64,000 nt of DNA from a virus. Lineage: Duplodnaviria; Caudoviricetes. Made by a program: the position numbers and the translations under genes. Below are positions 1 to 63,908 of the stretch, one piece after another. Location: positions 1-64,000 of the IMG/VR virus record IMGVR_UViG_3300035499_000517; one strand, given 5' to 3'. Below the pieces are notes generated by a model. That model had not been told where the DNA came from. It made no database searches and saw only the letters and a list, made by a program, of their open reading frames with translations. Positions within the stretch are counted from its first letter, which is position 1, and each line of letters starts with the position of its first letter.

Positions 1-3000
1 TGGAGATAAGCCCGCTGCACCAACGGCAAATTTAGCAACTGCCATGGAGCTATCCGTTACCGCCTTATAAGCTACGGAAGATGCCACAATAGCATCGCGA
101 GCCACGCTGGAAGCTGCCACCGCATTCATAGCCACGCTGGAAGCTGCAATAGCCGTCATTGAAGTTGCCGTTGCTGTTACTGCGTTCATGCCAACTTCAC
201 TGGCTGCTAAGACTTCCATATCTGCGTAGTCATTCGGTAATAATCCTGCTTCACCGACTGCATACTTCGCTGTTGCAATGCTACTTGCGTTCATTGCCTC
301 AAATTCGATATCGGAAGAAGCCATTGCTTTACGTGCTTCTGCATTTGACATTACAATATCCATTGCTTCTACACTATTTACAAGGTCACTTACGTCAGCA
401 TAATCTCTCGGGTCCAGACCACCATTTGCCACAGTGAACTTGATTGTACCAACCGGGCTATCCTCGATTGCCTGGAATGCAACGCTATTTGCTGTTACAG
501 TTTTTCTTGCAGTATCATCTGCTGCAAGATCATCGATGTCTTCGTAATCACCCGGGTTTAATCCTGCTTCTGCTGCTGCAAATTTTGCAACACCAATAGA
601 GGAATACGTCATTGCCTTATACGCATCGGTGTTCTTTACGATCTCTCCACGGATGGTTGCACTTGATGCGACAACATCCATATTTGCGTAATCATTAACG
701 TCATGATTTAAGAAGCCGATGATAAGTTTACCAACAGCGACGTAATCATTGATAAATGTCATATAAGTATCTTCTGCTTCAGCACTCTTTAAGATGTCTC
801 TTGCAGTGCTTGATACAGATACTTGATTTACAGCATTTGCATCATTTAAGACATCTGTAATATTCTGATAACTGCCTGTAATAAGCCCAGCACAGCCAAT
901 CATGAATTTTGAGATTGCCATTTCATTTGCTGCAATTGCTTTATAAATAGCACTGTTTGCAACAATTGCTGTTCTTGCTGTAGAAGATGCTCCCATAAGA
1001 TCCATTGCAACAGTTGAAGCAGCAAGCTCATAACCAGATGCAGTTGTCTTACAAACGGTTGTTAACGCAGTAGTGTTTCCAATAATTGCATTCACTGCAA
1101 GCTCTGATTCTGCAAGTTCTTTCATACCAGTATAAGATTTTGCAGCGGTTGCAATTGCCGTAGAAGACTCTACAAGAGCTTTCATACCAACACTAGATTG
1201 TCCACATTCGTACATGGCTGCTTTTGCATCGGTCATTAAACCAAGTGCAGTTGTATTTGCAATGATTGCAGCCATAGAAGTTGCAGAACCAACAAGTTCT
1301 TTCATACTTACATTAGATTTTACAGCGGTAGCAAATGCATCATTACTAACAAGAAGTGCGACTGATGTAGAGTTATCTCTGATTAAATCCAAGAAACTTG
1401 TTGCATAGATTGCAAAATGTAAGAGCGCGCTGTTATTCATAAGCGCATTGATCCATGCTGTCGTTCCGATTGCTGTATTTAAGTCACTATAACTGGTATC
1501 AGATAGGTTCATGACTTTGTTAAGGAACTTTCGCGTACATACTTCATCAGCGCCTAACATCAGTAATGAGTTCTCTGTGTTGTAGATGTCTGCTCTCTTA
1601 TCAGCGTCTGCAATCAAGATGCTTTCGTAATTATCAATGATATCAATCATCGCCTGTACGAATACATCATGACTTAATGCGATAGGGTAAGTCCTTCTGT
1701 CCGCTGACAATGCTGTTGCAGGCTGTGTTCTCTTTACAATCTGCTCAGAGAATGTCTTGTTCTTTGCAGCAGCATCCACAAAGTTTGTATTCCCAAGAAT
1801 GCTTACCAGATAATCATCATTTCCACAAATGGTATCAATGACATTCTGTGTAAGCTTCGTGTAATCCTGAACATCCTCAAGATCTTTTGCTCTTTGGTTT
1901 ACATCATCCAAAGTACTCTGCATCTGATTTCTTAAGGGTTCGTAATTATAAAGATTTTCTGCCTTCTCTGCGATAGATGAAAATGCCTCTGCAACTTCTG
2001 CAAGTGCATCTGTAGAGTCCTGAATCTCTGCAATGAAGTCAACCATGACTTTACATGCATCTTCGCTTTCTCCAACGATCGATAAACAGCTTTCTGTTGT
2101 TAAGATCTGCTTTGCAAATTCGCTGTTCTGCATGAGAATTGCTAAGCAAGTATCCGGGTTGTCTCTCATATATTCACAGCATTCCGTGCTGGTTACCGCG
2201 ATCTTAACGAGTTCCGGCTTATCGTTAAATGCACCAAGTGCATTATTCTGGCAGATATAAGAGATTGATGCGTTAAACTTCTCATGTACTTCATCATCAT
2301 TTGTAATGACTTCCGGTGTTAAGAGATTTGCATTAATCATCATATTAAGTGTCTCAGTCGGAATCGATGTTCCGGTTGGTTGTTTTGTTTCTTTTGTATA
2401 CTGCACACCATTTTCATCATAGTAGGTCCCGTCAGTGCTGTTGTAAATGGTGAGATATGCAGTGTTTACGATCTCGTCAATAAACCACGATGACATGCAT
2501 ACATTGCTCATGAATGGATCCGATGTCAAAAGCGTTGTCCAACCATCCTGTGATTCAATTGCCGCTGACAACGAACCGTACTCTGATAAGTCCAGATTAA
2601 AACGGTCCTTAATCCAATCCAAGCAATCATCTGCATGAATTCTTTCTGTTATATAATTCGTAAACGGTTTGAAAAACTTATCCGGAAGTGCATGAATAGC
2701 GTCCATGTTCATGTATTCTACAATGCTATTCAAATTTCCAGCAGAGAATGCTGTCGTTCCCGATAAGATATTTAAGATCTTTCCAGCTTTCGGATGCTTT
2801 CTTAAGATGTAATCAGCATCGTCTTCTGTAAAACGGTCATAGATTTTATCTACAACACCCTGGTGTGTCCACACCATAGTGGACTTCATCAATAATTCAT
2901 GGAATAAGTCTTCGTTCGCCGGCTTCATAATGTAACTCTCTGAACCGAGACGCTCAATGGAATCAATGTAGTTCAAGTAATTGAGCGGTTCATTTTTGAA

Positions 3001-3036: not shown

Positions 3037-3264
3037 TCTTTTCTTTCACCTTCCTCTCTATTAGAATCCAAGTCTCCCTTTCGGATAGAGATGCTATTCC
3101 CTCATAGCAAAGGATACCAAATCCTTTTTCTTTTTCCCTTTCTTAGGGCATATTATCCGAAAGAGCTATTTGTCATTAGACCTCTAATGTGTCCTTATTT
3201 GTATTTTTGAACCCTTGAAAATAACACGAATAATGTCTCTTAGGTCCAATAATGAGGACTAGTC

Positions 3265-17357: not shown

Positions 17358-19758
17358 ATGCTTAAATATCTACAGGAATATGAGACGGTCTTTGATGAGC
17401 ATTTGAATGAAGCGCTCATGAATAAAGCAGATGATCGTCCACTTTTGGATTTCATTTTGGAATCCTGGTATTCGCTTCAGATTATTGAAGGCATTGAAAT
17501 CTTGGATTGGAAGTATACCGAGAAGGAATCCGAGATTGATATGAACAAGTATATCTTCAAGCGAAACCGAAATGTAAAACAGAAAGAAAAATACGATTTT
17601 AAGTACATCGATGAGTCAAGAGTTGGTCTTCTTACAGTAACCGTAAGACTTACTGTGGAAACAACAGATCCAAGGGTTGGTGAAAGCGTCACCAAGCAGC
17701 AGGTAATTACAAAATCTATGCTGATTCCTTTACAGGATGAAGATGGATGTTACTTCTTGAATGGTCAGCGTGTGTATATGATTTACCAGCTGGTAGAGAA
17801 GTCTACTTATACCGCTGCAAACTCTGTTATCTTGAAATCATTGATGCCATTTGCGGTACGCCGCTATACGATTGATGTAAATGATGCATTGGGAACAGAA
17901 TATACACTTCCCTATTACACAATTGAGTTGTTTAAGAAAGACGTTGAAGTTATGTTAATATATGCAACTAAAGGTCTTGATTATGCAATTCAGTTCTCAT
18001 TAGAAGCAGCTTATGTCGTAATGAATTTCGTGGAGGAATTTGATGAGAATGATTTAATCAATCTCTACTTTCCGATTTCTTCACATTTATACATCAAAGT
18101 CAACCGGCAGTTGTTTGACCAGTTTGTTTACGTAAGAAGTGTTGTTGGTGGAATCTTAAAGATATCGACAAACAGATTGACTTTAGAGAAAATCAATGAC
18201 ACCGAATTATGGTTAAAGAAGCTGGGTGGAACAAATTCTCAGAAAGGTGAAAATTTACTGAGATCCGCGAAACGATTGCTGGATGAAACAACTGGAAAGA
18301 TATTGAAACTGGAGATCTATCAGAAGCACGATGTTTATTCACTTACTCGATGGATGTGCCAGGAATATAACGATTTACGAATGAAAGACAATATGGATTT
18401 GAGTAATAAGAGGATAAGATCAAATGAAATCCTCTCTTGCTTGATGACACAGGAATTTTCTATTCGATTAAACCGAGTCATGAGCTTTGGTAAAAAGGCT
18501 GATCTCGATAATTATAGAGAGCTGTTCTCCTTCCCTGGGGACATCCTCCTGCAGAAGATGCACGGCTCTGGTATATTGAGATATAACGATGTTATTAATG
18601 ATATGACTTTCTTTAGTAAGTTCAAATTCACAATAAAAGGACGTGGGATAGTAGCGTGATAAATGCGTAGCTGCTATTGGGTCGTTCAGAACGAAACCAT
18701 CAAGTAGGTTCTGAATAATAAGTGGAGAAAGAAGCTGGAACTCCGTTTGCAACGGAAATCAGAGTGTTAAGGCTATAAGTAACGCTATAGTCAACCGCAA
18801 CGCGTAGAGATTGAAACTTCTATTGAGATATAGAAGAATATAATATCTCCAAGAGGCTCCACTATCGGATGGTACAATCTGCAAAAGATTGTGATAAAAA
18901 GGTACGCTGGGCTGGGTTATAATGACTCAGAAGTAAAGATAAAAAGCTTTACGATAACAATTTTGCTCACTCATTGGGAAATAAGAACTCTAATAGTATA
19001 TCTGCGAGATATCGTGGCCTTCATCACAGTTATATTGGTCATATAGACCTTACTGTTTGTGGAAATTCGGATTAACGCAGGTCCGAGTAAAACCAATCTA
19101 ATTGCGGGGACGAATTCATAATCTTTAACTACCAACTTATATCTGGTGACAGGATAAGGGCAAAGGGTAACTCCGGAGATATGGTAATCAAGGTTAAAGA
19201 TGAATCAATCGGCGCAACGAAGTATCTCACAACGATGAGATATGTGTTCAACGATCAGGGAAAGCTATATACCAGAAATGGTTGAAAATAAGGTAGATTG
19301 AAATATCTACACGAAGCGAGTAGGCCTAAGATAGCAGGCGAAAGGTAGGTTGAAACAAACCGAAACGGTTGGTGCAGAGAAATCTGTAATGATATGATCT
19401 AGTTCAAATAAGAACGCCAGGAACAAGTGGAGTTTTAACACCATATGGAAAAATGGACGGACTGTATTTTGACGGTTCTCCAGAGCCAAATGATTTCACT
19501 TGGATATTCCATCAAGCAGTAACAGCTGTAGCTAAGGAACAGGGCATTCATCTAATTACTCTTGATTTTGATAATCAGGAGGATTATTATAATGCTCTTA
19601 ATGAGTTACAGGGATTTACGGATTCCAATGTCCGTGTGTCAACATCATCAAAAGCCGATGACCGTTCTATTATTATTGAACCGGCAGTTGACTTAGATGA
19701 TCGTAGAAAGGATACAAAAAGTATCGCCGTGAAACCAGGTGGTAATAAACGGAAATAA
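17358..19758 (+). CDS. Non-virion RNA polymerase beta subunit, N-terminal part; spliced join(17358..18642,18966..19072,19417..19758), 577 aa
   Basis: Splicing restores FTIKGPHSLGNKNSNSISARYRGLHHSYIGHIDLTVCGNSDPGTSGVLTP, equivalent to bacterial beta LGPGGL...R.VH.SHYGRIC..ETPEG..G. Confidence 0.85.
18643..18965 (+). ncRNA. Group I intron (323 nt, no ORF) in nvRNAP beta-N
   Basis: P3 AGTGGAG/CTCCACT; P7 GCGTA (in CGCAACGCGTAG) / TACGC (in AAGGTACGCTG); terminal G; removal restores KGPHSLG. Exact 5' splice site atypical. Confidence 0.75.
19073..19416 (+). ncRNA. Group I intron (344 nt, no ORF, IA-like) in nvRNAP beta-N
   Basis: P1 TCGGAT|.../GTCCGA with U-G at the splice site; P element AATTGCGGG; P7 GATCA/TGATC; terminal G; removal restores GNSD-PGTSG in frame. 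Confidence 0.9.
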
Positions 19759-19849
19759 AATATTCAAATAGAGGATATTCCAACGAGTATCCTCTATTTT
19801 TAAACTCAAAATAGATTTATATATTATCTATTTGAGGAGGTGAGAAATC

Positions 19850-20548
19850 ATGTACAAACTCATTGCAAATCTTGGAGAAGTCAATGACTTCTTACGATTA
19901 CAACTATCGGTTGTATATCGGAATAACTTAAATAAAGAGAATGTAATGCGCTATAATATCAGTGGAAATGATTATTTGCAAATCAAATTGTTTCCGAGTC
20001 TCATTATGCAATACCGGAATGATTCAGAACGTGAGAAATTCGATAATAAGAAATCCATGATTATGAATCAGATGGATGTTTTTAAGTTTGTAAAGTATGG
20101 GAGAATGTTGGGATCAAAGATGAAAGAAGTGCAAAATCTTTATTATATTGAAGCAGAGACAAACTCACTTCGAGTCAACAAAGAGCTTGCAAATAAAATT
20201 TCAATCACGATTCCACTCTCATTTAATAGAAAGATTTGGGTTGTTCCAATCGTTGTAAAGGATAAAGATTCCGGTGGATATTTGGAAGGAATTGGAATGT
20301 GTTTTAATGTAACCAGTAATTATGTGATGATGCAACGAGAAGAATTTCTGTTCCTAGTGGATTTTCTGGAACAGGTAGACATGAATTCAATCAGTTTGCA
20401 ATTGATTACTTATGCAGAAGTTACGAAAGATAAAACATTCTCAAGACTCGATACACTCCCATCAGCTGGAATGACGAAACAACCTGAAGAAACTAAAATT
20501 ACAGGAATTGGTCCAATTACACAAGAAGATCAAATCCCAAAAATTTAA
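19850..20548 (+). CDS. Hypothetical early protein
   Basis: 232 aa, GGAGGTG RBS, early motif at 19820. Confidence 0.85.
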   Translation: MYKLIANLGEVNDFLRLQLSVVYRNNLNKENVMRYNISGNDYLQIKLFPSLIMQYRNDSEREKFDNKKSMIMNQMDVFKFVKYGRMLGSKMKEVQNLYYIEAETNSLRVNKELANKISITIPLSFNRKIWVVPIVVKDKDSGGYLEGIGMCFNVTSNYVMMQREEFLFLVDFLEQVDMNSISLQLITYAEVTKDKTFSRLDTLPSAGMTKQPEETKITGIGPITQEDQIPKI

Positions 20549-20561
20549 AAGGAGAAATAAA

Positions 20562-21371
20562 ATGGGTGAAAGAAGGAAACTCGACAAGACAACCACTGGT
20601 TTGGTTTACAAAGACCATTCCTACATGGTTGCAGGGTACATATCGGATTACGAACTTACAACAGAGTCTGATATGGTAGCTGAAGTAACCGGTGAAGAAC
20701 CAAAGAAATTAACAGTAAACGATTTTGAAGAAAATCGCGGGTATTGTGATGACGAAGGATTTATTCATATCTTTCGGAAGGAACCGAATAAGTCAGAGAT
20801 TATCCCGTGGTTTACGGTAGAGTTAAACAGCGATCTGAATCCGGTGTTAAAGTTTGCAAGTTATTCGACACCAGAACTGAAACGGGCATTTTACATTGAC
20901 CGGGTCGGGGATTTATCTACCGCTGCAATTTTAAAGAACTCGATTGGAAGTGATGATATGTATGATCAGGAGATCATTGATGAACTCCAGAATGCAAGTT
21001 CTCATTACGTTCCAGTCATTGATGAGTCGGATGACTTTTTAAAGAAACTTGTAAAAACGATGTTGCTTGAGACTGGTATTGATGCTCATAGTTTTAAGAA
21101 ATATATGGAGCATTCATATCAGATTTCCAATATGATTCAAGGGTTAAACTCCAAAACAAAGATGAATCCATTTGTCTTTGATACTTGGATGGGACTTGCT
21201 GGGATTCCCTATAAAATCGTGATTCAGGGGCCTGGCTCAGATCCAAATCATCCATTGGAGCACTCAATCGAATATGACAGCACAACGAATCGTATCCACT
21301 TAGTTGGAAAGGAAGGAGCATTAAATGACCCGGATAGCAACATTGCGGTCTCTGCAAGACAATTCAATTAG
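20562..21371 (+). CDS. Hypothetical protein
   Basis: Start moved to ATG 20562 (AAGGAG RBS). Confidence 0.85.
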   Translation: MGERRKLDKTTTGLVYKDHSYMVAGYISDYELTTESDMVAEVTGEEPKKLTVNDFEENRGYCDDEGFIHIFRKEPNKSEIIPWFTVELNSDLNPVLKFASYSTPELKRAFYIDRVGDLSTAAILKNSIGSDDMYDQEIIDELQNASSHYVPVIDESDDFLKKLVKTMLLETGIDAHSFKKYMEHSYQISNMIQGLNSKTKMNPFVFDTWMGLAGIPYKIVIQGPGSDPNHPLEHSIEYDSTTNRIHLVGKEGALNDPDSNIAVSARQFN

Positions 21372-21945
21372 CATTGACGCATTGCAGAAAATCATTGGTG
21401 ATTTAAAGAATCATCAAATCAGAAATTTAAGCTTTAATTGTCGCGTCGCAGATTTACGGGATGTAACCCGCGCACACAATGGTCATGCACCAGACACCGT
21501 CTCCATTTCCTATGTGAAAAATGTTGAACTGGAAGATGGACTTCACAAGATGGATGCAACATTAACCGTGTATTTTACTAGAAGATCCGAAGTATATCGT
21601 TTGGTTGCTTACGGTTCAATCTCGGGGGAGTTTGATTCTGGATACATGGGTTACACCTTCATCTTACAAGATTATCTGTATTACTTCATGACAAAGACAA
21701 TTGAAAATAATCGAGCTATGCAGGAGTTTCGGGAAATTCATTTTCCGGACTCCTTAGAAGAGCTCGAAGCAAAGACACCAAATTGGAATCTCTTTGAACA
21801 GCGTGCTTACAGTACTGGGATTGCATCTGATTTACGGATTGTTGATTTTGGCACAGAAAAAGAAGATTACGCTGAGCAAGTTATGAGAGAATCTGGAGTA
21901 CTTTTACACGAGAATGATGTTATTCCCGTGATAAAGGATAAATAA
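21325..21945 (+). CDS. Hypothetical protein
   Basis: 206 aa, AAGGAG RBS inside the upstream gene. Confidence 0.8.
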   Translation: MTRIATLRSLQDNSISIDALQKIIGDLKNHQIRNLSFNCRVADLRDVTRAHNGHAPDTVSISYVKNVELEDGLHKMDATLTVYFTRRSEVYRLVAYGSISGEFDSGYMGYTFILQDYLYYFMTKTIENNRAMQEFREIHFPDSLEELEAKTPNWNLFEQRAYSTGIASDLRIVDFGTEKEDYAEQVMRESGVLLHENDVIPVIKDK

Positions 21946-21965
21946 ATTTAGGAGGACATGAAATT

Positions 21966-22292
21966 ATGTATGGAAGCTATTTAACAGGAAAGAAAGAGAC
22001 AAGCACGAAGACACCAAGTAGAGCATCTTCGAGTCGTGGTTCATCAAAGAGTGGAAGCAGCGGGATTATTCAGGTTCAGGGATATATGAATGAGATTCAG
22101 GGAGATATCCAGGATGCAATTTCACATGGTGCTGATGTTCTTGCAAGATATGCATTACAGCAGATGGAGGATGGTTCTACCAATCAGACAAAGCTGATTG
22201 CAAATATCAACACCGCTCTTAACGGATTTACTCCGGAGCAGCAGAACCAGATTCTCGTAGCAACCGTTGCAAAAATGATTGCTAATGGATGA
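21966..22292 (+). CDS. Hypothetical protein
   Basis: 108 aa, AGGAGG RBS, Ser-rich N-terminus, terminator follows. Confidence 0.8.
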   Translation: MYGSYLTGKKETSTKTPSRASSSRGSSKSGSSGIIQVQGYMNEIQGDIQDAISHGADVLARYALQQMEDGSTNQTKLIANINTALNGFTPEQQNQILVATVAKMIANG

Positions 22293-22354
22293 TTCTACAA
22301 GAAAGATAAGAGGAAAGGGTTTTTCCCTTTCCTCTTTAATTCACAAAGAATAGG

Positions 22355-23803
22355 ATGATTATCATGAAAAAAGATATTCGTGTTTATGGAACCAGAATAG
22401 AAATCGAACCTTATGAAGAAGGAGAAAATTATAAGTTAGAAAAGATGTGTTCGGCACGATATGACTATAAGACAAAAACAGCTGAACCTTTAGGATATAG
22501 AATAGAAGATAATAAAATTATTATACCAAGAGGCATCTCACTTGCTATGTTATCACAGTCTTATGATGATAGCATTCCAACGATGATGCCAGCAGATGAC
22601 CCTGCTCCAATGAGTGGAGATTACAGGGTTACTGTAAAACCAAAAGATGAAACCCAGGTAAAAGCCATTTCTTTTTTACTGGGGCTAAATGAATTTTCGA
22701 ATTCTGCAAGATTTCCACAGCTTGCATTAAACCTTGATACTGGACTGGGAAAAACATATTGCACAGTCTATGCTATTTTAGCATTTAAGACAAGAACGCT
22801 TATCATTTTACATCAAGACAGTATTCGTGAGCAGTGGATTAATACATTCCTCGAAAAGACAACGATGCCTTCTAAGAAGATTCATCGTATCATTGGAATG
22901 AAAGGAATGAATGATGCAGTTAGAAGTCGAAATAAGTATGATGTACATTTAATCCTTCATAGCACGCTTTGTGGTTACATTAAAAAGTATGGGCCAGAAT
23001 CACTCCGTGAATGGTTTAAAGTAATGCAATTTGGTCTTAAAGTTGTAGATGAAGCACATCTTAACTTTAGACAAACCATTGATACTGACTTTTGTAGCAA
23101 TGTTACAAAGAGCATCTATTTGACAGCAACCATGACTCGTTCCAGCTATACAGAAACTGGACTCTTTGAACGGTTCTTTGCAAATACGATGCAATATGGA
23201 GAAAATGTAGGGGTTGTGAAGAATGTTGTGTATAACCTTGTCTATTACAATTCCAATCCGACATATACACAGCAGAGTCGTATTTATACATATAAAGGAG
23301 TTTCGATTATTCGCTGGGCTGATTATGCCTTTAAATATGATCGAAATAAAACCATTTACATTGTATTCTTTAAGATCTTAAAAGAAGCAATGAAACATGA
23401 AGGACGAATTATGGTTATGATACCAAAAATTGAGTATTGTGAAACCATCGCTAGATTTATTCGGGAAGAGTATCCAGATTATAGCGTTGGAACTCTCCAT
23501 TCAAAGAACACAAAAGAGGTAAATGAACGAGTAAAACGATTTGCCAATATAATCGTTACGACGATAGCGAGTAGTGGAACAGGAACCGATATTAAGTTCA
23601 TGCGTTCTATTATCGTAATGGAACCTTACGCTTCTCAAGTTACTGCAAGACAGATGAGTGGACGATTACGGGAATACGAACCAGGAGCTGAATCTTATGT
23701 CTATGAGTTAGTAGACTCTGGATTTGAAGCTATTTCTAATATGGTAAATAAACGAATCAAACCTCTAAAGGATAAGTGTAAGAAAGTCCAGATTATGAAA
23801 TAA
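22355..23803 (+). CDS. Superfamily 2 DNA helicase (UvsW-like)
   Basis: Walker A LDTGLGKT, DEAH, motif III TAT, motif V SGTGTD, motif VI QMSGRLR. Confidence 0.9.
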   Translation: MIIMKKDIRVYGTRIEIEPYEEGENYKLEKMCSARYDYKTKTAEPLGYRIEDNKIIIPRGISLAMLSQSYDDSIPTMMPADDPAPMSGDYRVTVKPKDETQVKAISFLLGLNEFSNSARFPQLALNLDTGLGKTYCTVYAILAFKTRTLIILHQDSIREQWINTFLEKTTMPSKKIHRIIGMKGMNDAVRSRNKYDVHLILHSTLCGYIKKYGPESLREWFKVMQFGLKVVDEAHLNFRQTIDTDFCSNVTKSIYLTATMTRSSYTETGLFERFFANTMQYGENVGVVKNVVYNLVYYNSNPTYTQQSRIYTYKGVSIIRWADYAFKYDRNKTIYIVFFKILKEAMKHEGRIMVMIPKIEYCETIARFIREEYPDYSVGTLHSKNTKEVNERVKRFANIIVTTIASSGTGTDIKFMRSIIVMEPYASQVTARQMSGRLREYEPGAESYVYELVDSGFEAISNMVNKRIKPLKDKCKKVQIMK

Positions 23804-23915
23804 TTTTAAGGGAAAGGGTGATTATACTCTTTCCCTTTTAATACCCTCAATCTGGATAAGCATAAGTCAAAATACAAAAATCTTAAGAGAAAATAAAGAA
23901 AGGACTGAATTATTT

Positions 23916-26432
23916 ATGGAAGTAAAAGACAGTCATTTTTTGAAAGAATATAGAAATCAGGTGAAAGATGCATTAAAGAAACTTCACCCTGATTGGAAAG
24001 ATGATTTTTTAAAGAAAAATATAGATGAAATAATTCTAAGGGAATTAAGAAATCCCGAAACGACATTAGAAAACGATTATACACACGAACTTAGACAGAC
24101 AAATTTGGTATCTGTATTTGATTGGTTAATGGAAACAAAACCAATTATAGCTGCAAATGGAACTTTCTTTAAGCAGCATAAAGATGCAATAAATCCAAAT
24201 GCATTAATGGTAGATGACTTCTTGGTTCAAAGAGCACGAATCAAGAAAGAGATGTTTGCTATTGAAGATGAGTCATCTCGTGCGTATGCTTCTAAAGATA
24301 TCAAACAGGGAAACGAAAAACGCTTGGCTAATTCCTAAAATAATGGGACGAAATCTAGTGATAGATTGGAAAAACTTCTCTAACTGCGGGAACGAACTCG
24401 GTAATTTTTAACTACCAACCAAGAGTGGTGACATTCTTGGGGCAAAGGGTAACTCCGGAGATATGGTAATCAAGGTTAAAGATAGAGTCGACCGACGCAA
24501 GAAAGTATCTCACAACGATGAGATATGACTTCAACGACTATGGAAAGCTAGACAACCAGATTGATAGAAATATCTAAATACGAAAGTAGCTGGTTTGAAA
24601 ATAAGGTAAGTTGAAATACTTACACGAAGCGAGTAGGCCTAAGATAACAGGCGAAAGGTAGGTTGAAACAAACCGAAATGGGAAGCTCTCTGATATTTGG
24701 TAATAGAGTATTGGAGATGATTATATAGCCTGATCTTCAAGGGGACTTGAAGTAAACATAAAATGATTATGGCGCAAGCGGTATGAAGGCATCTGCCTTT
24801 TATAATCAGTTTACAGCACCCTGTACAACAAAATCGGCTCAGTCTGTGATCTCAACAGCTGAGACGACCTTCGAAGCATTCTTAGCTTCAAATTTTAATT
24901 TCGTAGATATCAATGAATGCTACTTCTGGATCCAAACAGTACTTGATGAGAAAGTTAAATGTGAGGATTGGATAAAAAGAGTTCCATTAGATATCTGCTA
25001 TGAGAGAATATCTTCTGCTGTTATAGGAGCTACTGATGAAGATAGAGAAACTCTTAGAGAATTCATGGAGAGTTTAAGTGAAGAAGATATCACAAGAATT
25101 TACTGGAAGAATAATCTTATTGCATTTACAGATGCTCATGATGAAGTGAAAGCTATCTGGGATACAGTTTTTAGTACTGTAGATAATTATGAGTACATGA
25201 AATCAGATGACGACTTCTCAGTGGTTCCAGAGGAGTATTTAGAGGAAGTAAAATCTGCCAAGAAACCCATGAAGAAATGGGCAAGTATTGTAGACTTCAA
25301 TTACTTCTATAACCCGAATAAAGTTCCAAAGAGCATCGAGAAATACGTAGATGCTTTGAAGGATATCTATATGGATTATTGTTACGTAGAATTTATGTAC
25401 ACTGACCGAATCTATAAACTTAAGAACTTTAGACGAGATGTTGTTACAGTTATTGACACAGACTCAAATATCTTATCTTTGGATACCTTTATGGAATATT
25501 GCTTGGAGAATTTAAAACATGGAGAATATGGACGGGACCCATGGAATAATGTCTTCATTGCAGTAAATACCATTACATATACAATCACTGCGGTTATTAC
25601 AAAGACACTTTTGTATTATGGAGAAATGAGTAATGTTGAAGAAAGTATTAGACCACGTTATTCTATGAAGAACGAGTTCTTCTTCTCAAACCTTATTCTT
25701 GCAAAAGTAAAGAAGCGTTACTTATCAAAGGTATTGCTTCGAGAAGGAAACCGCTTATTGAAACCGAAATACGATGTAAAAGGATTTGACTTTAAGAAAG
25801 CATCTACATCAGATGATGCGTCAAATTTCTTTATGCATATCGTAAAAGATTTGATCTTAGAACCAGAGCAACTTGATATCAAACGGATTATGAAAGAGAT
25901 TCAGAATTTCCGTTATGAAGTACGAAGGACTATTGAATCTGGTGATAAGAGATACTTACCAATTGCATCTGCAAAAGAATTAGATGCTTATGCAACCCCA
26001 GATAGAGAGCAAAGTGTTCGTGGAGCATTGGCTTGGAATGTTTTATATCCAGACCGTGCAGTAGAACTTCCTGTGAAGTTAAGTCTTTTAAAGACCACGA
26101 TTACATCTATTGATATGCTTTCTGATTTACAACGAACCGATCCACAGCTTTATACAAATATAAAAACGGGAATTTTTGAAGATACTACTGGAACTTTCAA
26201 TAGAAAGCTTTCCAATGGAAAAGGAATTCAATGCGAAGGATTAACAGTTCTTGGAATTCCACTTCATGAAGATATTCCACAGTGGATCATTCCATTTGTC
26301 GACTATACAACGGTCATCAATTCTGTTGTAGCACCGTTTAAGTCTGTTACAGAAACTTTTAATATGCCAAGTATTGAAGAAGGAAAAACAGGGAGAAAGA
26401 CAACTGGATTTAGCAATATCATAAAGATTTAA
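23916..26432 (+). CDS. Split family-B DNA polymerase, C-terminal subunit (motifs B and C); spliced join(23916..24336,24766..26432), 695 aa
   Basis: Splicing gives KRLANSYYGASG (motif B KxxxNSxYG); IDTDS (motif C); KKRY; KGFDFKK. Confidence 0.9.
24337..24765 (+). ncRNA. Group I intron (429 nt, no ORF, IA-like) in DNA polymerase
   Basis: P1 TCCT|/GGGA with U-G; P10 ATAAT/ATTAT; AACTGCGGG; TTCAACGACTA; terminal G; long blocks shared with intron 19073-19416. Confidence 0.92.
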
Positions 26433-26511
26433 AGGATTTGGATTCATCCCTGGAACTTTTATGATAAGTAAACCTAATGAAATGAAATCTTAAGAAAGGA
26501 AGGAAGAAATC

Positions 26512-33729: not shown

Positions 33730-34680
33730 ATGACTCAAGATCAGTTACAAGAAGAGATACGCCAATCTCAAGAAAGCGTATTAAAACCAACCGATTATAG
33801 TGAAACTGCTTATGTTGAAATGAAGGAGTTTCGTGCAAGGCAACTAGAATTATTAAAGGATTTTCTATTAACGAAAAAGATTGAAGGATGTAAGAATAGT
33901 ACCTTGCGTGATTATCATGATAAAGTGATGAAACTAATCGAATGGACTAAGAAAGATCTTATTGATTTAACCACGAAAGATATTAAGCAGTATTTAATGG
34001 AGTACCAAGAAAAGAGATCTATTCAAGAATCTTCATTAGATCAGATTCGAATTGTCTTATGCACATTCTTTAGATTTTTGGAAGATGAAGAACTCATTGT
34101 AAGAAACCCAGTGAGAACGATTCGAAAAATCAAAGCAGATGAGAAGATTCGTTTACCATTTACAGATGAAGAGCTCGTTATGATTCGAGATGCTACAAAG
34201 ACACCAAGAGATTTAGCCATTGTAGATTTACTCTATTCATCAGGAATTCGTATTGGAGAATTGGTTTCTCTTAATATCAAAGATATGGATTTTGGACAAC
34301 GTGAATTTGTTGTTTATGGAAAAGGAGGTACTGAACGCATTTGTTATTTTAATGCAAAAACGAAAGTAGAGATTTTAAGGTATTTAGGAACTAGAGATGA
34401 CAAAGAAGAAGCACTCTTTGTAACTCTTCGAGAACCACATCGAAGATTAAAGAAGAATGGAATTCGTCATATGCTAGACGATATTGAACTTCGAACAGGA
34501 GTGAGTAATATTCATCCTCATAGATTTAGAAGAACCCTAGCAACGAATCTTTTGGAGAAAGGAATGAGCTTGGAACAGGTGCAGTGCATTCTAGGTCATA
34601 AACGTCTTGAAACGACGCTCGTTTATGCGAAGATTAGTAATGCTGCTGTGAAACTCAATCATCAAAGATTTACAACTTAG
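33730..34680 (+). CDS. Tyrosine recombinase (XerD-like)
   Basis: SGIRIGEL (R), GKGG (K), HPHRFR (HxxR), LGH, TTLVY (Y) all intact; N-terminal SAM-like domain; early motif at 33688. Confidence 0.92.
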   Translation: MTQDQLQEEIRQSQESVLKPTDYSETAYVEMKEFRARQLELLKDFLLTKKIEGCKNSTLRDYHDKVMKLIEWTKKDLIDLTTKDIKQYLMEYQEKRSIQESSLDQIRIVLCTFFRFLEDEELIVRNPVRTIRKIKADEKIRLPFTDEELVMIRDATKTPRDLAIVDLLYSSGIRIGELVSLNIKDMDFGQREFVVYGKGGTERICYFNAKTKVEILRYLGTRDDKEEALFVTLREPHRRLKKNGIRHMLDDIELRTGVSNIHPHRFRRTLATNLLEKGMSLEQVQCILGHKRLETTLVYAKISNAAVKLNHQRFTT

Positions 34681-52951: not shown

Positions 52952-53350
52952 GTGAAAAAGAAGATCGTAGGAATTATCTCAGTCCTTATCTTACTTTGTG
53001 CATTGGTTACAGGTTGCTCTGAAGCAGAGCGGGTTTCGTATAACCTCTCTCAGGAAGCAGACAACTTCAATGTAGTAAGACAGCTTACGGTGATCAATTG
53101 TATTACCGGTGACACGTTATTCCAGATGACTGGAAAGATGAGTATCACTGCTGACACGGAAGACGACCAACTCGAAATTATCGTGGAGGACGAGGGAACT
53201 TATGTGAAGCATTTTGTTGGGTTAAGTGATAACGTAACTTATGTTGTCGAAGATTTGAACCTTGGTTCAAATGAAGTTTCGAAGTATCGATACACGTTAA
53301 ACTTCAATCCCAACATGTGGATCCCTGTGGAAGCAGATGTAATCGATTAA
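52952..53350 (+). CDS. Phage lipoprotein
   Basis: Signal peptide with lipobox LVTG-C; EADNFNVVRQLTVIN motif common in Firmicute phage lipoproteins. Confidence 0.8.
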   Translation: MKKKIVGIISVLILLCALVTGCSEAERVSYNLSQEADNFNVVRQLTVINCITGDTLFQMTGKMSITADTEDDQLEIIVEDEGTYVKHFVGLSDNVTYVVEDLNLGSNEVSKYRYTLNFNPNMWIPVEADVID

Positions 53351-57096: not shown

Positions 57097-57744
57097 ATGC
57101 CACGGGGGAAATTTATTGTATTCGAGGGCATTGATGGTAGTGGGAAATCCACTACCATGAGCCTGTTAGAGGGAAATCTTAGCAGTAGGTATGGAAATCA
57201 CTTTCTTTGCGAAGAGGAACCAACCCATAATTCAGTTGGACAGATTTTTCATCAACTTATGACTGGGGATCTCCCATTTGATAATGAGGTAGCTGCTGGA
57301 TTTATTTCGATGGATCGATATGATCATATCGTTAATCCAAATCGTGGGCTTCTTAAGAAAATCAATGAAGGGAAAACTGTACTCGAATCTAGGTATACCT
57401 ATTCAACACTCGCTTATAATATGAGCGATGTTAGCAGGGATTATTTGGTGTATCTTCATAATAAATACAATCAGATTTTAAAACCTGATATTATCATTTA
57501 TCTTGATATTGATCCAGAGCTTGCTTTGGAAAGACTCAGCAGGCGGAATAGATCTGAAGAGGTCTTTGAAAAGCTTGATACATTAAAACAGATCAGGGAA
57601 AATTATCTGAAAGTATTTTCAGAGTTTGGTGAAAACGATAACATCTATTCGTATAGTATCACAAAAGATACGCATGTTTACGATGTTGTGGAGGATTTAA
57701 TTCCAGTAATTGAGAATTGCTGTGGCTTTGGGTCCTATCGTTAA
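57097..57744 (+). CDS. tmk: Thymidylate (dTMP) kinase
   Basis: FIVFEGIDGSGKST P-loop, EP, DR.H, PD..IYLD, lid region; canonical DRY motif reads SRY. Confidence 0.88.
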   Translation: MPRGKFIVFEGIDGSGKSTTMSLLEGNLSSRYGNHFLCEEEPTHNSVGQIFHQLMTGDLPFDNEVAAGFISMDRYDHIVNPNRGLLKKINEGKTVLESRYTYSTLAYNMSDVSRDYLVYLHNKYNQILKPDIIIYLDIDPELALERLSRRNRSEEVFEKLDTLKQIRENYLKVFSEFGENDNIYSYSITKDTHVYDVVEDLIPVIENCCGFGSYR

Positions 57745-62651: not shown

Positions 62652-63908
62652 ATGGCACATGTAGTACGAACAGAAGTCATTAATTTGAAAAATGAATATG
62701 TCGTGGCTGACCAAGTCTCATGGGATCGATTATTCTATGATGACATTATGAACCATGATGGATTTGTTATTTCAGAACCTGCCGTCTTATCATTAGATGG
62801 TAGAAAAGAGAAAAATATGTTTGGACCAAACTCTCCACTGTTTGGAACCACTTATGGTGACGAGCAGGCATTTATGGAAAGGCATAGATGTAAATGTGGA
62901 GAATTTAAAGGACTACGTTTCAAAGGTGAAATTTGCCCTTTCTGTGGTACAAAGGTAGAAGCCAGAGATATGGATATCAAAAAGACTGGCTGGATTAGTT
63001 TGGGTGATAATGTTTTAATTAGCCCTTACTGGTATAAGATATTTGAAAGAACCATTGGGAAGAAACCATTTGCAGAGATGGTGGAAAGAATCGAAAGAGT
63101 TGATGCTGATGGTAATCGTCATGAGGTCGCTTATGATGAGGATCATCCACCATCATCTCCATTTGCTGGAATAGGAATCGACGGGTTTTACGAAAGATAT
63201 GATGAGATACTCGATTACTTTGCAGCAAAGAAAAAAGATAAGAGGGAACAACTGAATCAGGCAAAGCGTTGTAAATACAAAGCTTTCATTCATCATATTC
63301 CTGTATATTCGACTTTCTTAAGACCATCATCGGTTACAGCTGATACATTCTATTTCAATGGTATTGATAAAGAGATAAATACATTGGTTAACTTATCTAT
63401 GACGCTCAGGGATTGTGAGCCCATAGAGAAACCCTTTATTCAAACACATATGCAGACTAGACTGCAAACCATGTGGGAGTTGAACTTCAACCAAGTCTCG
63501 CAAAAGAAGGGATTTATACGTAATAAGATCATATCAGGTTCCCTAAATTATACGAGTCGCTCAGTCATAACGCCGGATCCAACACTTGCTGTAGATCAGG
63601 TAGACATGAGTTATCAGGGATTTCGTATCTTATTTAAATATAAGATTATTTACTACTTGATGAAAATACTTAATATATCGCTCTCTGATGCCTACATGAT
63701 GTGGAAAGATGCATATAAGAAAGACGATTACGTTCTTTCTATTATGAATTATATAGTAAAGAAAGAAAAACCGAGGATTTTATTAAATAGAAATCCTACA
63801 ATCAATCTGTATTCAATGCTTATGTTAAGAATACGCCGGGTGAAGGACGATTGGAAGAGGACAACGTTGTCTGTTCCTTTATTTATTTTAGCCGGTTTGA
63901 ATGCCGAT
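62652..63908 (+). CDS. Non-virion RNA polymerase beta' subunit, N-terminal part (exon 1; gene continues past the window)
   Basis: Not in ORF track. MAHVVRTEVI...; Zn finger CKCG...CPFC; SRSVITP; LLNRNPT; GLNAD at the exon end (first half of NADFDGD). Confidence 0.9.

What the first reader, a model, noticed from the sequence alone, without database searches (positions are those of the whole stretch)
19073..24765. Two closely paralogous, endonuclease-free group I introns in unrelated essential genes with re-tuned guide sequences
Seen: the introns in nvRNAP beta-N (19073-19416) and DNA polymerase (24337-24765) share long near-identical blocks: GGGCAAAGGGTAACTCCGGAGATATGGTAATCAAGGTTAAAGAT; AAGTATCTCACAACGATGAGATATG; ACACGAAGCGAGTAGGCCTAAGATA.CAGGCGAAAGGTAGGTTGAAACAAACCGAAA. 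Yet each has a P1/IGS complementary to its own exon (TCGGAT/GTCCGA vs TCCT/GGGA), and P7 differs (GATCA/TGATC vs GACTA/TAGCC). Neither encodes a homing endonuclease. Established: homing normally moves introns between alleles of one site. Inference: ectopic spread within the genome (reverse splicing or trans-acting factor) or concerted evolution of intron cores, i.e. an intron family tying transcription and replication genes to one splicing condition.
Basis: partly seen in the sequence, partly recalled or inferred. Interest (0 to 1): 0.72.

Follow-up and report, generated by a model that had tools for sequence, protein, structure and literature searches.

The report
Sister self-splicing introns, jumbo phage
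Two small self-splicing RNA introns that interrupt the RNA-polymerase and DNA-polymerase genes of a gut jumbo phage are real relatives. They are two copies of a very large, mostly endonuclease-free intron family that fills many essential genes of related uncultured phages and swaps internal segments between copies.

Summary
Intron A (19073-19416) and intron B (24337-24765) are ORF-less group I introns, 87% identical where alignable. Each has its own P1 guide, and their P7 helices differ. A gut metatranscriptome contig joins 19072 directly to 19417, so A is spliced in vivo exactly as predicted. Intron-less alleles in relatives confirm both junctions.

- The pair is not special. nhmmer finds 245 family hits in 125 loci from gut and rumen jumbo-phage contigs, in at least 26 gene contexts, with 2-15 matches per complete related genome.
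- The long P5 block is family-wide.
- Other family members carry a NUMOD4/HNH_3 homing endonuclease in the P6 loop, including at site A. A and B are therefore most simply ORF-less copies of an HNH-mobilised family at recurrent homing sites.
- One 48-nt block is shared only by A and B among all copies. A is a mosaic: its ends resemble the same-site intron of a relative and its interior resembles B. Same-site introns of distant phages do not form a clade. This supports exchange between copies within a genome or lineage.
- A shared "splicing condition" has no support.

First-stage notes recorded sister introns elsewhere in this genome and in another genome. Multi-intron gut phages are already published.

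The parts
17358..18642 (+). Exon 1 of the RNAP beta-like gene (homolog of the AR9 non-virion RNAP beta subunit)
   Evidence: phmmer to PDB 7S00 chain c, E 5.3e-35. 7S00 is the AR9 nvRNAP (PMC9209446). The exon end at 18642 comes from an RNA contig joint.
18643..18965 (+). Upstream intron of a different family; not part of the A/B family
   Evidence: An RNA contig skips exactly these 323 nt, and circular-junction contigs are present. Neither the A/B profile nor the family profile hits it.
18966..19072 (+). 107-nt mini-exon ending ...CGNSD; its last six bases UCGGAU form the 5' strand of P1 of intron A
   Evidence: The RNA contig covers 18966-19072 with no mismatch. tblastn finds homologous exons in relatives.
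19073..19416 (+). [quoted passage not shown] Elements: IGS GUCCGA 19081-19086; P3 19092-19098 / 19367-19373; P4 19103-19108 / 19209-19216; P5a 19121-19129 / 19193-19201; P5b GUGA hairpin 19136-19158; P6 19222-19243; P7 19253-19257 / 19395-19399; P7.1 19271-19282; P7.2 19293-19310; P8 19374-19387; P9 19402-19415; omega-G 19416
   Evidence: Sequence; coordinates; covariation in 72 family copies; spliced junction 19072|19417 seen in RNA; intron-less alleles L036 and L040.
19318..19365 (+). The 48-nt block private to A and B, copy in intron A (peripheral hairpins between P7.2 and the 3' strand of P3)
   Evidence: GGCCTAAGATA and GAAAGGTAGGTTGAAA occur only in A and B among all loci. In a 45-nt window A differs from B by 1 edit and from the next best copy by 10.
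19417..19758 (+). Exon 3 of the RNAP beta-like gene (PGTSGVLTPYG...)
   Evidence: Frame and homologs. The first 16 nt follow 19072 in the RNA contig.
23916..24336 (+). Exon 1 of a divergent family B DNA polymerase, ending ...KRLANS plus the first base of a Tyr codon
   Evidence: Pfam PF20286 divDNApol. Uninterrupted homologs in G001 and G002.
24337..24765 (+). [quoted passage not shown] Elements: P10 AUAAU 24340-24344; IGS GGGA 24345-24348; P2 24352-24367; P3 24375-24380 / 24680-24685; P4 24385-24390 / 24492-24499; P5a 24404-24412 / 24475-24483; P5b 24419-24440; P6 24505-24526; P7 24536-24541 / 24725-24730; P7.1 24554-24595; P7.2 24606-24623; P8 24687-24717; P9 24735-24752; omega-G 24765
   Evidence: RF00028 scores 30.2 bits, E 6.5e-6, in a narrow search, below the gathering score of 50. 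Covariation; coordinates. Intron-less alleles restore NSYYG.
24631..24678 (+). The 48-nt block private to A and B, copy in intron B (one G/A difference from A)
24766..26432 (+). Exon 2 of the family B DNA polymerase (..YYGASGMKASAFY...); its first five bases AUUAU can form P10
   Evidence: Pfam PF20286, E 2.6e-27; sequence.

Best explanation
A and B are two functional, ORF-less group I introns. They have IA-type architecture: the P3/P7 pseudoknot, a large P5 extension with a GNRA-capped P5b, and P7.1/P7.2 inserted between P7 and the 3' strand of P3.

They belong to one large intron family that populates the essential genes of AR9-like jumbo phages from gut and rumen. The family is mobilised at the DNA level by NUMOD4/HNH_3 homing endonucleases, which some members encode in the P6 loop. 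A and B are copies that have only a short closed P6 hairpin. They sit at two recurrent insertion sites in highly conserved motifs: the RNAP beta ...SD|PG... motif and the DNA polymerase motif KxxxNS|YG.

The ends of each intron (P1/IGS, P10) are specific to its site because they must pair with the exons. The interiors are exchanged by homologous recombination or gene conversion between copies in the same genome or lineage. That exchange explains why A and B share a private 48-nt block and P5a, while A otherwise resembles the same-site intron of a relative.

Status of each step:
- Shown: homology, structure, splice junctions, in vivo splicing of A, family size, and endonuclease-bearing members.
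- Inferred: loss of the endonuclease ORF, homing as the route of arrival, and gene conversion as the source of the shared block.
For: Group I identity:
- P/Q/R/S-type core sequences and U.G plus omega-G splice sites.
- 91.3% of cells paired against 35-42% for slid controls. 60 of 72 pairs change on both sides, including P3 (6 of 6) and P7.
- RF00028 reaches 59.7-61.3 bits (gathering score 50) for four homologous family members, and 30.2 bits for B.

Splicing:
- RNA contig X1 record 1 joins 18642 to 18966, ends at 19072, and continues with the letters of 19417-19432.
- Intron-less alleles exist for both sites.

Family size:
- 19 IMG/VR stretches and at least 120 metagenome stretches.
- 245 nhmmer hits in 125 loci.
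- At least 26 gene contexts.
- 2-15 matches per related genome of 149-282 kb (three complete by CheckV).

Endonuclease:
- 20 members carry a 147-474 aa ORF in the P6 loop.
- All 10 ORFs scanned list NUMOD4 and/or HNH_3 at E <= 0.01; 7 of the 10 pass a curated cutoff.
- Two of these ORF-bearing introns are at site A (L065, L075).

Recurrent sites:
- Site A is occupied in L008, L039, L092, L065 and L075, with the guide co-varying with the Ser codon (TCG with GUCCGA, TCA with GUCUGA).
- Site B is occupied in L046, L160 and L112. All have exon UC(C/G)U|AU..., whereas empty alleles read AGU or UCA.

Exchange between copies:
- The private A/B block.
- Triplet mosaic of A, B and L008: 40 against 25 informative sites, clustered, max chi-square permutation p 0.022.
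- Same-genome, different-context pairs are more alike than different-genome pairs (0.716 against 0.684, 0 of 500 shuffles).
- An A+B clade is not rejected (p-AU 0.54), whereas all-site-A and all-site-B clades are rejected (p 0.0012 and 0.0003).
- A second example: two introns of contig G001 at different sites share a near-identical ~45-nt P5 insertion that the same-context introns of L009 lack.
Against: - Splicing of B is not shown. No RNA contig covers its exons.
- The join at 19072|19417 rests on one contig and a 16-nt overhang.
- A and B never reach Rfam's gathering score themselves.
- No endonuclease-bearing copy was confirmed at site B. L112 was not read beyond its 5' part.
- Similarity of P1/P10 among same-site introns could be convergence forced by the exon rather than common descent.
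- The private block could also come from a recent duplication from a third copy elsewhere in the genome, which I could not read.
- The same-genome excess is not corrected for phage phylogeny.
- The mosaic p value (0.022) is modest, and the triplet was chosen after looking at the data.
- Gene-context clusters merge nearby sites, so "same site" really means same gene region.
Confidence: 0.62

Rival explanations
1. Recent ectopic transposition within this phage lineage. One resident intron copy, or a third copy elsewhere in the genome, colonised the second site. The route would be reverse splicing or off-target endonuclease cleavage, and the guide was re-tuned afterwards. Under this reading, resemblance of the ends to same-site introns of other phages is convergence imposed by the exon sequence.
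For: - An A+B clade for the interior is as likely as the free tree.
- A's highest column identity is to B (78%).
- Site B is empty in the nearest available relatives G001 and G002, so B was gained, or lost in those relatives, after the lineages split.
- Same-site introns of distant phages are not monophyletic.
- First-stage notes, which I could not check, report five more sister copies in this genome.
Against: - A and B differ by about 13% plus large indels. P2 is present only in B, and P7.1, P8, P9 and P7 differ. Neither is a recent copy of the other.
- A's first 45 nt are 4 edits from L008 and 15 from B. A also shares the rare P7 variant with L008.
- Insertion into an essential gene with a mismatched guide would be lethal until re-tuned.
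- Occupied site-B alleles in four phages share the exon context UC(C/G)U|AU, which differs from empty alleles. That is as expected for DNA homing with co-conversion.
- No reverse transcriptase was seen in the window ORFs scanned.
Confidence: 0.23
2. There has been no exchange or intragenomic history at all. A and B are two independently acquired family members, each arriving by homing from other phages. All their similarity is ordinary family conservation, and the private block is an ancestral variant that simply has not been sampled elsewhere.
For: - The family is 83-90% identical in alignable regions across phages.
Against: - The 48-nt block differs by 1 base between A and B but by at least 10 edits in 45 from each of 108 other copies.
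- It lies in the most variable peripheral region of the family.
- The mosaic signal.
- The same-genome excess of similarity.
Confidence: 0.12
3. Regulatory reading: the shared core makes splicing of the RNAP and DNA polymerase mRNAs depend on one common condition or factor, coupling late transcription and replication.
For: Only that both genes need splicing to be expressed, and that spliced RNAP mRNA exists in vivo.
Against: - No ligand-sensing element, no shared protein-binding motif beyond the ribozyme, and no maturase gene were found.
- Relatives carry the same genes without the introns, so the introns are dispensable.
- The family inserts into at least 26 unrelated gene contexts.
Confidence: 0.03

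Closest known systems
Group I introns of Herelleviridae phages (Staphylococcus phage K / A5W polA introns with I-KsaII and I-KsaIII, Twort, SPO1/SP82 DNA polymerase introns with HNH nicking endonucleases)
   Same: - Only these give a DNA match in 50,697 GenBank phage records: 71% over 117 nt (P3-P5 region) to the polA intron that carries I-KsaIII.
- Same kind of host gene (DNA polymerase).
- Same class of endonuclease (HNH/NUMOD) in family members.
- Several introns per gene, with ORF-less and ORF-bearing forms side by side (from memory: Landthaler and Shub 1999 for Twort; PMC3984707).
   Different: - In A5W the ORF lies after the 5' strand of P7. In this family it lies in the P6 loop.
- The host phages here are AR9-like jumbo phages known only from metagenomes.
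- Copy number and number of sites are far higher.
Multi-intron gut phages: Jug jumbo phages (18.5 group I introns per genome) and crAss-like phages
   Same: Many group I introns interrupt essential genes (terL, DNA polymerase, nrdD). Endonucleases are mostly free-standing or absent. Splicing is supported by metatranscriptome reads (PMC12880540).
   Different: - Jug phages are 360-402 kb Bacteroides phages with introns averaging about 206 nt, found with subgroup covariance models.
- Here the host clade has AR9-type RNAPs, and the introns are 300-480 nt.
- The passages of that paper that I read do not describe site-versus-genome phylogeny or exchange between copies.
PhiPA3 gp210 mobile intron and introns in jumbo-phage RNAP genes
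   Same: A group I intron with an HNH endonuclease in an RNAP subunit gene of a jumbo phage, used in competition between co-infecting phages (PMC11620839, PMC12908238). Site A here has HNH-bearing versions in relatives.
   Different: The window's copies have no endonuclease. No sequence relationship to the PhiPA3 intron was tested.
Recombination between the homologous cores of the phage T4 td, nrdB and sunY introns (Bryk and Belfort 1990, recalled from memory, not retrieved)
   Same: It gives a precedent that related intron cores at different loci of one phage genome recombine and yield functional chimeric introns.
   Different: Those events were crossovers that deleted the DNA in between. Here the pattern is patchy conversion without rearrangement, and it is inferred from sequence only.

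Membership tests
Group I catalytic intron (Rfam RF00028) | 5' splice site after a U that forms a U.G pair in P1 with an internal guide sequence | tested here: met
   A: UCGGAU / GUCCGA. B: UCCU / GGGA. The guide co-varies with the exon in same-site relatives.
Group I catalytic intron (Rfam RF00028) | Terminal omega-G at the 3' splice site | tested here: met
   G19416 and G24765. The position of A's 3' site is confirmed by an RNA contig and that of B's by intron-less alleles.
Group I catalytic intron (Rfam RF00028) | Conserved core: P3-P8 and P4-P6 domains with the P3/P7 pseudoknot, supported by covariation | tested here: met
   72 pairs in 16 helices. 91.3% of cells paired against 35-42% for slid controls. 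60 pairs change on both sides. P3 6 of 6, P7 2 of 5, P6 7 of 7.
Group I catalytic intron (Rfam RF00028) | Score at or above the curated gathering threshold of the covariance model | tested here: inconclusive
   - A: no hit even at E <= 10.
- B: 30.2 bits, below 50, and only in a narrow search.
- Four homologous family members reach 59.7-61.3 bits.
Group I catalytic intron (Rfam RF00028) | Removal from the transcript with exact exon ligation | tested here: met
   Met for A only, from one metatranscriptome contig with no mismatch. B's exons are not covered by any contig, so B is untested.
Group I catalytic intron (Rfam RF00028) | Protein-independent self-splicing with guanosine and Mg2+ | not testable with these tools
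   Needs an in vitro transcription and splicing assay.
Subgroup IA (IA2-like phage introns) | Extra P7.1/P7.2 pairings in the P3-P8 domain | tested here: met
   A 110-140 nt insertion with covarying hairpins lies between the 5' strand of P7 and the 3' strand of P3. That this position defines IA is from memory. PMC3984707 only names P7.1/P7.2 as class features. No subgroup covariance model was available.
Mobile (homing) group I intron | Intron-encoded homing endonuclease | tested here: not met
   - A and B have no ORF.
- No family-type endonuclease is present in the six-frame translation of the window.
- No HNH, GIY-YIG or LAGLIDADG Pfam hit in 50 window ORFs.
- Other family members do encode NUMOD4/HNH_3 proteins.
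Mobile (homing) group I intron | Presence/absence polymorphism of the intron at the same site among related genomes | tested here: met
   Site A is empty in L036 and L040 and occupied in at least 5 others. Site B is empty in L120, G001 and G002 and occupied in L046, L160 and L112.

The most novel reading that the evidence does not exclude
The family evolves in modules. Short site-specific adapter ends (P1/IGS, P10, P9) stay with the insertion site. The ribozyme interior and its peripheral hairpins are repeatedly homogenised or swapped among the copies (ten or so, by unverified notes) of one phage genome. Intron interiors would therefore track the genome rather than the site. This would be concerted evolution of a ribozyme multigene family inside a virus, and it could also let a working core be re-targeted to new essential genes simply by recombining new ends onto it.
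Probability: 0.4. Interest if true: 0.6.

Novelty: new member of a known kind. Interest (0 to 1): 0.42.

Why it matters
- Annotation. Rfam at its curated threshold finds none of the introns in this 64-kb window. The RNAP beta and DNA polymerase genes therefore appear as fragments. The same will be true for hundreds of genes in related gut and rumen jumbo-phage contigs.
- Intron biology. This is a large natural data set: hundreds of copies, at least 26 gene contexts, both ORF-bearing and ORF-less forms, and both empty and filled sites. It makes the old question of how group I introns reach new sites directly testable. The candidate routes are homing, reverse splicing, and recombination of cores with new ends.
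- Limits. The individual pair A/B is otherwise ordinary. Endonuclease-free group I introns in conserved motifs of phage replication and transcription genes are well known, and multi-intron gut phages have been published.

Tried and rejected
- Whole-genome search for more copies: no genome is held for this window. The window's own record was not among the loci fetched from IMG/VR, metagenome or genome collections, with no long match at 95% or above. Copy number in this genome therefore rests only on unverified first-stage notes.
- megablast of 18600-26500 against GenBank phages: no match.
- Rfam at gathering score on the window: nothing. A gives no RF00028 hit at any threshold.
- A covariance model of the family was not built. 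The intron exceeds the practical size limits, so nhmmer profiles were used instead.
- RNAalifold on the family alignment recovered P3-P6 but missed P7 because of a competing CUA/UAG pairing. P7 was set by hand and then tested.
- P1, P2, P8 and P9 were left out of the column-wise covariation count because their alignment is unreliable.
- RNA runs: only two gut metatranscriptomes hold small shares (0.09 and 0.06) of the stretch. They give nothing on the exons around B, and contigs over the interior of B come from relatives (9 differences).
- Co-conversion tract: window against G001 DNA polymerase identity is lowest (0.57) in the 60 nt before site B. With a mean of 0.725 and a range of 0.57-0.87 this is not significant.
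- The degenerate 17-base pattern is expected to give chance hits in the large collections. Only loci confirmed by nhmmer were used, and about 36 of 161 loci had no family hit.
- P10 for intron A: no convincing pairing was found.
- PDB sequence search for the DNA polymerase exon 2: no hit.

Full report
**What is there**

The window comes from a jumbo phage.
- The gene split at 19073-19416 encodes a homolog of the beta subunit of the phage AR9 non-virion RNA polymerase. Exon 1 matches PDB 7S00 chain c at E 5.3e-35, and 7S00 is the AR9 nvRNAP (PMC9209446).
- The gene split at 24337-24765 is a divergent family B DNA polymerase. Pfam PF20286 hits both exons.

Intron A (344 nt) and intron B (429 nt) align along their whole length, with 273 of 314 aligned positions identical. 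The quoted blocks are exact and unique to these two places in the window. Each intron follows a U that can pair with a G of a guide sequence complementary to its own exon. In A this is UCGGAU / GUCCGA and in B it is UCCU / GGGA. Each intron ends in G. B also has a 5-bp P10 (AUAAU / AUUAU). Neither intron has room for an endonuclease gene, and the two small overlapping ORFs have no Pfam hit.

**Are they group I introns, and are they spliced?**

Rfam's RF00028 finds nothing in the window at its curated score. In a narrow search it gives B 30.2 bits (E 6.5e-6) and gives A nothing. The alignment, read together with the sequence, gives the classical layout:
- P1, with P2 present only in B;
- P3 and P4, the latter with a 2-nt bulge;
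- P5 with a long extension (P5a, a junction helix, a 9-bp P5b capped by GUGA, and a small P5c);
- P6;
- the 5' strand of P7, then a 110-140 nt insertion of hairpins (P7.1, P7.2 and two more);
- the 3' strand of P3, then P8, the 3' strand of P7, P9 and the terminal G.

I tested this structure on an alignment of 72 non-redundant family copies (A2).
- 91.3% of cells form standard pairs, against 35-42% when partners are slid by 1-3 columns.
- 60 of 72 pairs change on both sides.
- All six P3 pairs and two P7 pairs covary, which supports the P3/P7 pseudoknot.
- Four homologous family members pass the RF00028 gathering score at 59.7-61.3 bits.

Direct RNA evidence exists for A. A 404-nt contig from a gut metatranscriptome matches the window without a mismatch. 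It covers 18500-18642, skips 323 nt, covers 18966-19072, and then runs on with CCAGGAACAAGTGGAG. Those 16 letters are exactly 19417-19432. That is the doubly spliced RNAP beta mRNA. No contig covers the exons around B.

Both junctions are confirmed by intron-less alleles:
- L036 (...VCSNSDPGMSGVL) and L040 for site A;
- L120, G001 and G002 (...ANSYYGGSG...) for site B.

**The pair is part of a very large family**

- The 20-nt core of the P5 block occurs exactly in 19 stretches of IMG/VR contigs, often several times per contig.
- A family profile confirms 245 hits in 125 loci. Most are on 120-280 kb contigs from human gut, rumen and other animal gut samples, including contigs binned as Clostridia or Lachnospiraceae.
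- Three related genomes that CheckV calls complete carry 2, 9 and 15 BLAST matches.
- Flank clustering of 110 full-length copies gives at least 26 gene contexts.
- In GenBank phages, the only similarity is 71% over 117 nt to the polA intron of Staphylococcus Kayviruses.

**Endonucleases**

Twenty family members carry a 147-474 aa ORF in the P6 loop. All ten ORFs scanned list NUMOD4 and/or HNH_3 at E <= 0.01, usually with a helix-turn-helix domain; seven of the ten pass a curated cutoff. Two of these ORF-bearing introns (L065, L075) sit at site A.

In the window there is no such protein in any frame. There is no HNH, GIY-YIG or LAGLIDADG hit among 50 ORFs scanned. A and B have a short closed P6 hairpin where relatives have the ORF. 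They are best read as endonuclease-free members of an HNH-mobilised family.

**Sites**

Site A is occupied in L008, L039, L092, L065 and L075, and empty in L036 and L040. The guide tracks the serine codon: TCG GAU with GUCCGA, and TCA GAU with GUCUGA.

Site B is occupied in L046/L071, L160 and L112, and empty in L120, G001 and G002. All occupied alleles read UC(C/G)U|AU, whereas empty alleles read AGU or UCA. This is what DNA-level homing with co-conversion of flanking exon bases would give, although constraint by P1/P10 could give it too.

**How A and B relate**

- Over whole introns, A's best match is the same-site intron of G001 (L008, 289/325). B comes second for A.
- B's best matches are introns at another site in other phages (L033, L011; 331/382).
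- In 45-nt windows, A's first window is 4 edits from L008 and 15 from B. Window 241-285 is 1 edit from B and at least 10 from every other copy.
- The strings GGCCTAAGATA and GAAAGGTAGGTTGAAA occur only in A and B.
- In the triplet A, B and L008, 40 informative sites group A with L008 and 25 group A with B. The latter cluster at A positions 44-131 and 253-289 (max chi-square, permutation p 0.022).
- Family-wide, same-genome pairs in different gene contexts are more alike (0.716) than different-genome pairs (0.684; 0 of 500 shuffles as high).
- On interior columns an A+B clade is not rejected (p-AU 0.54). A+L008 has SH-aLRT support of 89.6. Clades of all site-A introns or all site-B introns are rejected (p-AU 0.0012 and 0.0003).
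- A second example: two introns of G001 at different sites share a near-identical ~45-nt P5 insertion that the same-context introns of L009 lack.

**Reading**

The ends of each intron belong to its site. The interiors follow the genome or lineage. The simplest mechanism is homologous recombination (gene conversion) between 300-450-nt repeats that are 85-90% identical within a recombination-proficient phage genome, layered on HNH-driven homing at each site.

A recent transposition from a third, unseen copy of this genome cannot be excluded. Reverse splicing is not required. A regulatory coupling of transcription and replication has no support, because relatives lack the introns and the family inserts into many unrelated genes.

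**Known or new**

Group I introns with HNH endonucleases in phage polymerase genes, ORF-less derivatives, insertion in conserved motifs, collaborative or trans homing, and proposed ectopic spread are all established (PMC3984707, PMC2988022, PMC12908238). Gut jumbo phages with about 18 group I introns per genome, and crAss-like phages with many introns, are published (PMC12880540). Recent work on Bastillevirinae also found nuclease-free and nuclease-bearing introns intermixed (PMC11878797).

This is therefore a new member (a new family) of a known kind. The decoupling of intron interior from insertion site, and the private A/B block, are the parts worth following up.

Noticed in passing
window 18643-18965: The upstream intron belongs to a different family. 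An RNA contig joins 18642 to 18966 exactly, so the 5' exon ends in C rather than U. Other RNA contigs join 18965 back to 18643, as expected for full-length intron circles. This bears on first-stage note e1-5658313.
   Followed up: partly
L012 about 3181-3193; same arrangement in L014, L017, L069, L074, L122: In relatives, three family introns lie within about 1.3 kb of one gene. Two of them appear to be separated by a micro-exon of only about 13 nt (TCAACAAAACCAT), with the next intron's guide GUGG pairing to CCAU.
   Followed up: partly
window 19253-19257 / 19395-19399; also L008, L005/L020, L058, L025, L160:3865-4243: A rare P7 variant swaps the two middle pairs (C-G, U-A becomes U-A, C-G). 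It is seen in 5-6 of 72 copies at several sites. B and L013:3940 instead have an A.C mismatch at the second P7 pair. The effect on the guanosine-binding site is unknown.
   Followed up: no
L018 5181-5603, L072, L083, L042, L064, L050: A divergent subfamily (P4 region reads TTTATTGG instead of TTGCGGGG) is inserted 12 nt upstream of site A in the same RNAP beta motif, after ...VC.
   Followed up: no
window 1-64000: Rfam at gathering score reports no RNA family in the whole window. Yet the window holds at least three introns (A, B and 18643-18965) and, by first-stage notes, a fourth starting near 63900.
   Followed up: partly
window 33730-34677 (+): An intact tyrosine recombinase (Phage_integrase, E 3.4e-34, with SAM-like N-terminal domains) lies in a jumbo phage of a type usually considered non-integrating.
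   Followed up: no
window 57097-57741 (+) and 52952-53347 (+): A thymidylate kinase / dNK-like protein (E 4.8e-32) and a Phage_VG64 family protein (E 4.7e-46) are present. The kinase is of interest if this AR9-like phage also uses a modified base.
   Followed up: no
L142 (Ectobacillus funiculus JCM 11201, isolate genome), L148, L150, L154: Partial family hits (the 5' half only) occur in bacterial genome records, including one cultured isolate. These may be prophage or bacterial introns with an ORF, and could point to a host range or a cultivable system.
   Followed up: no
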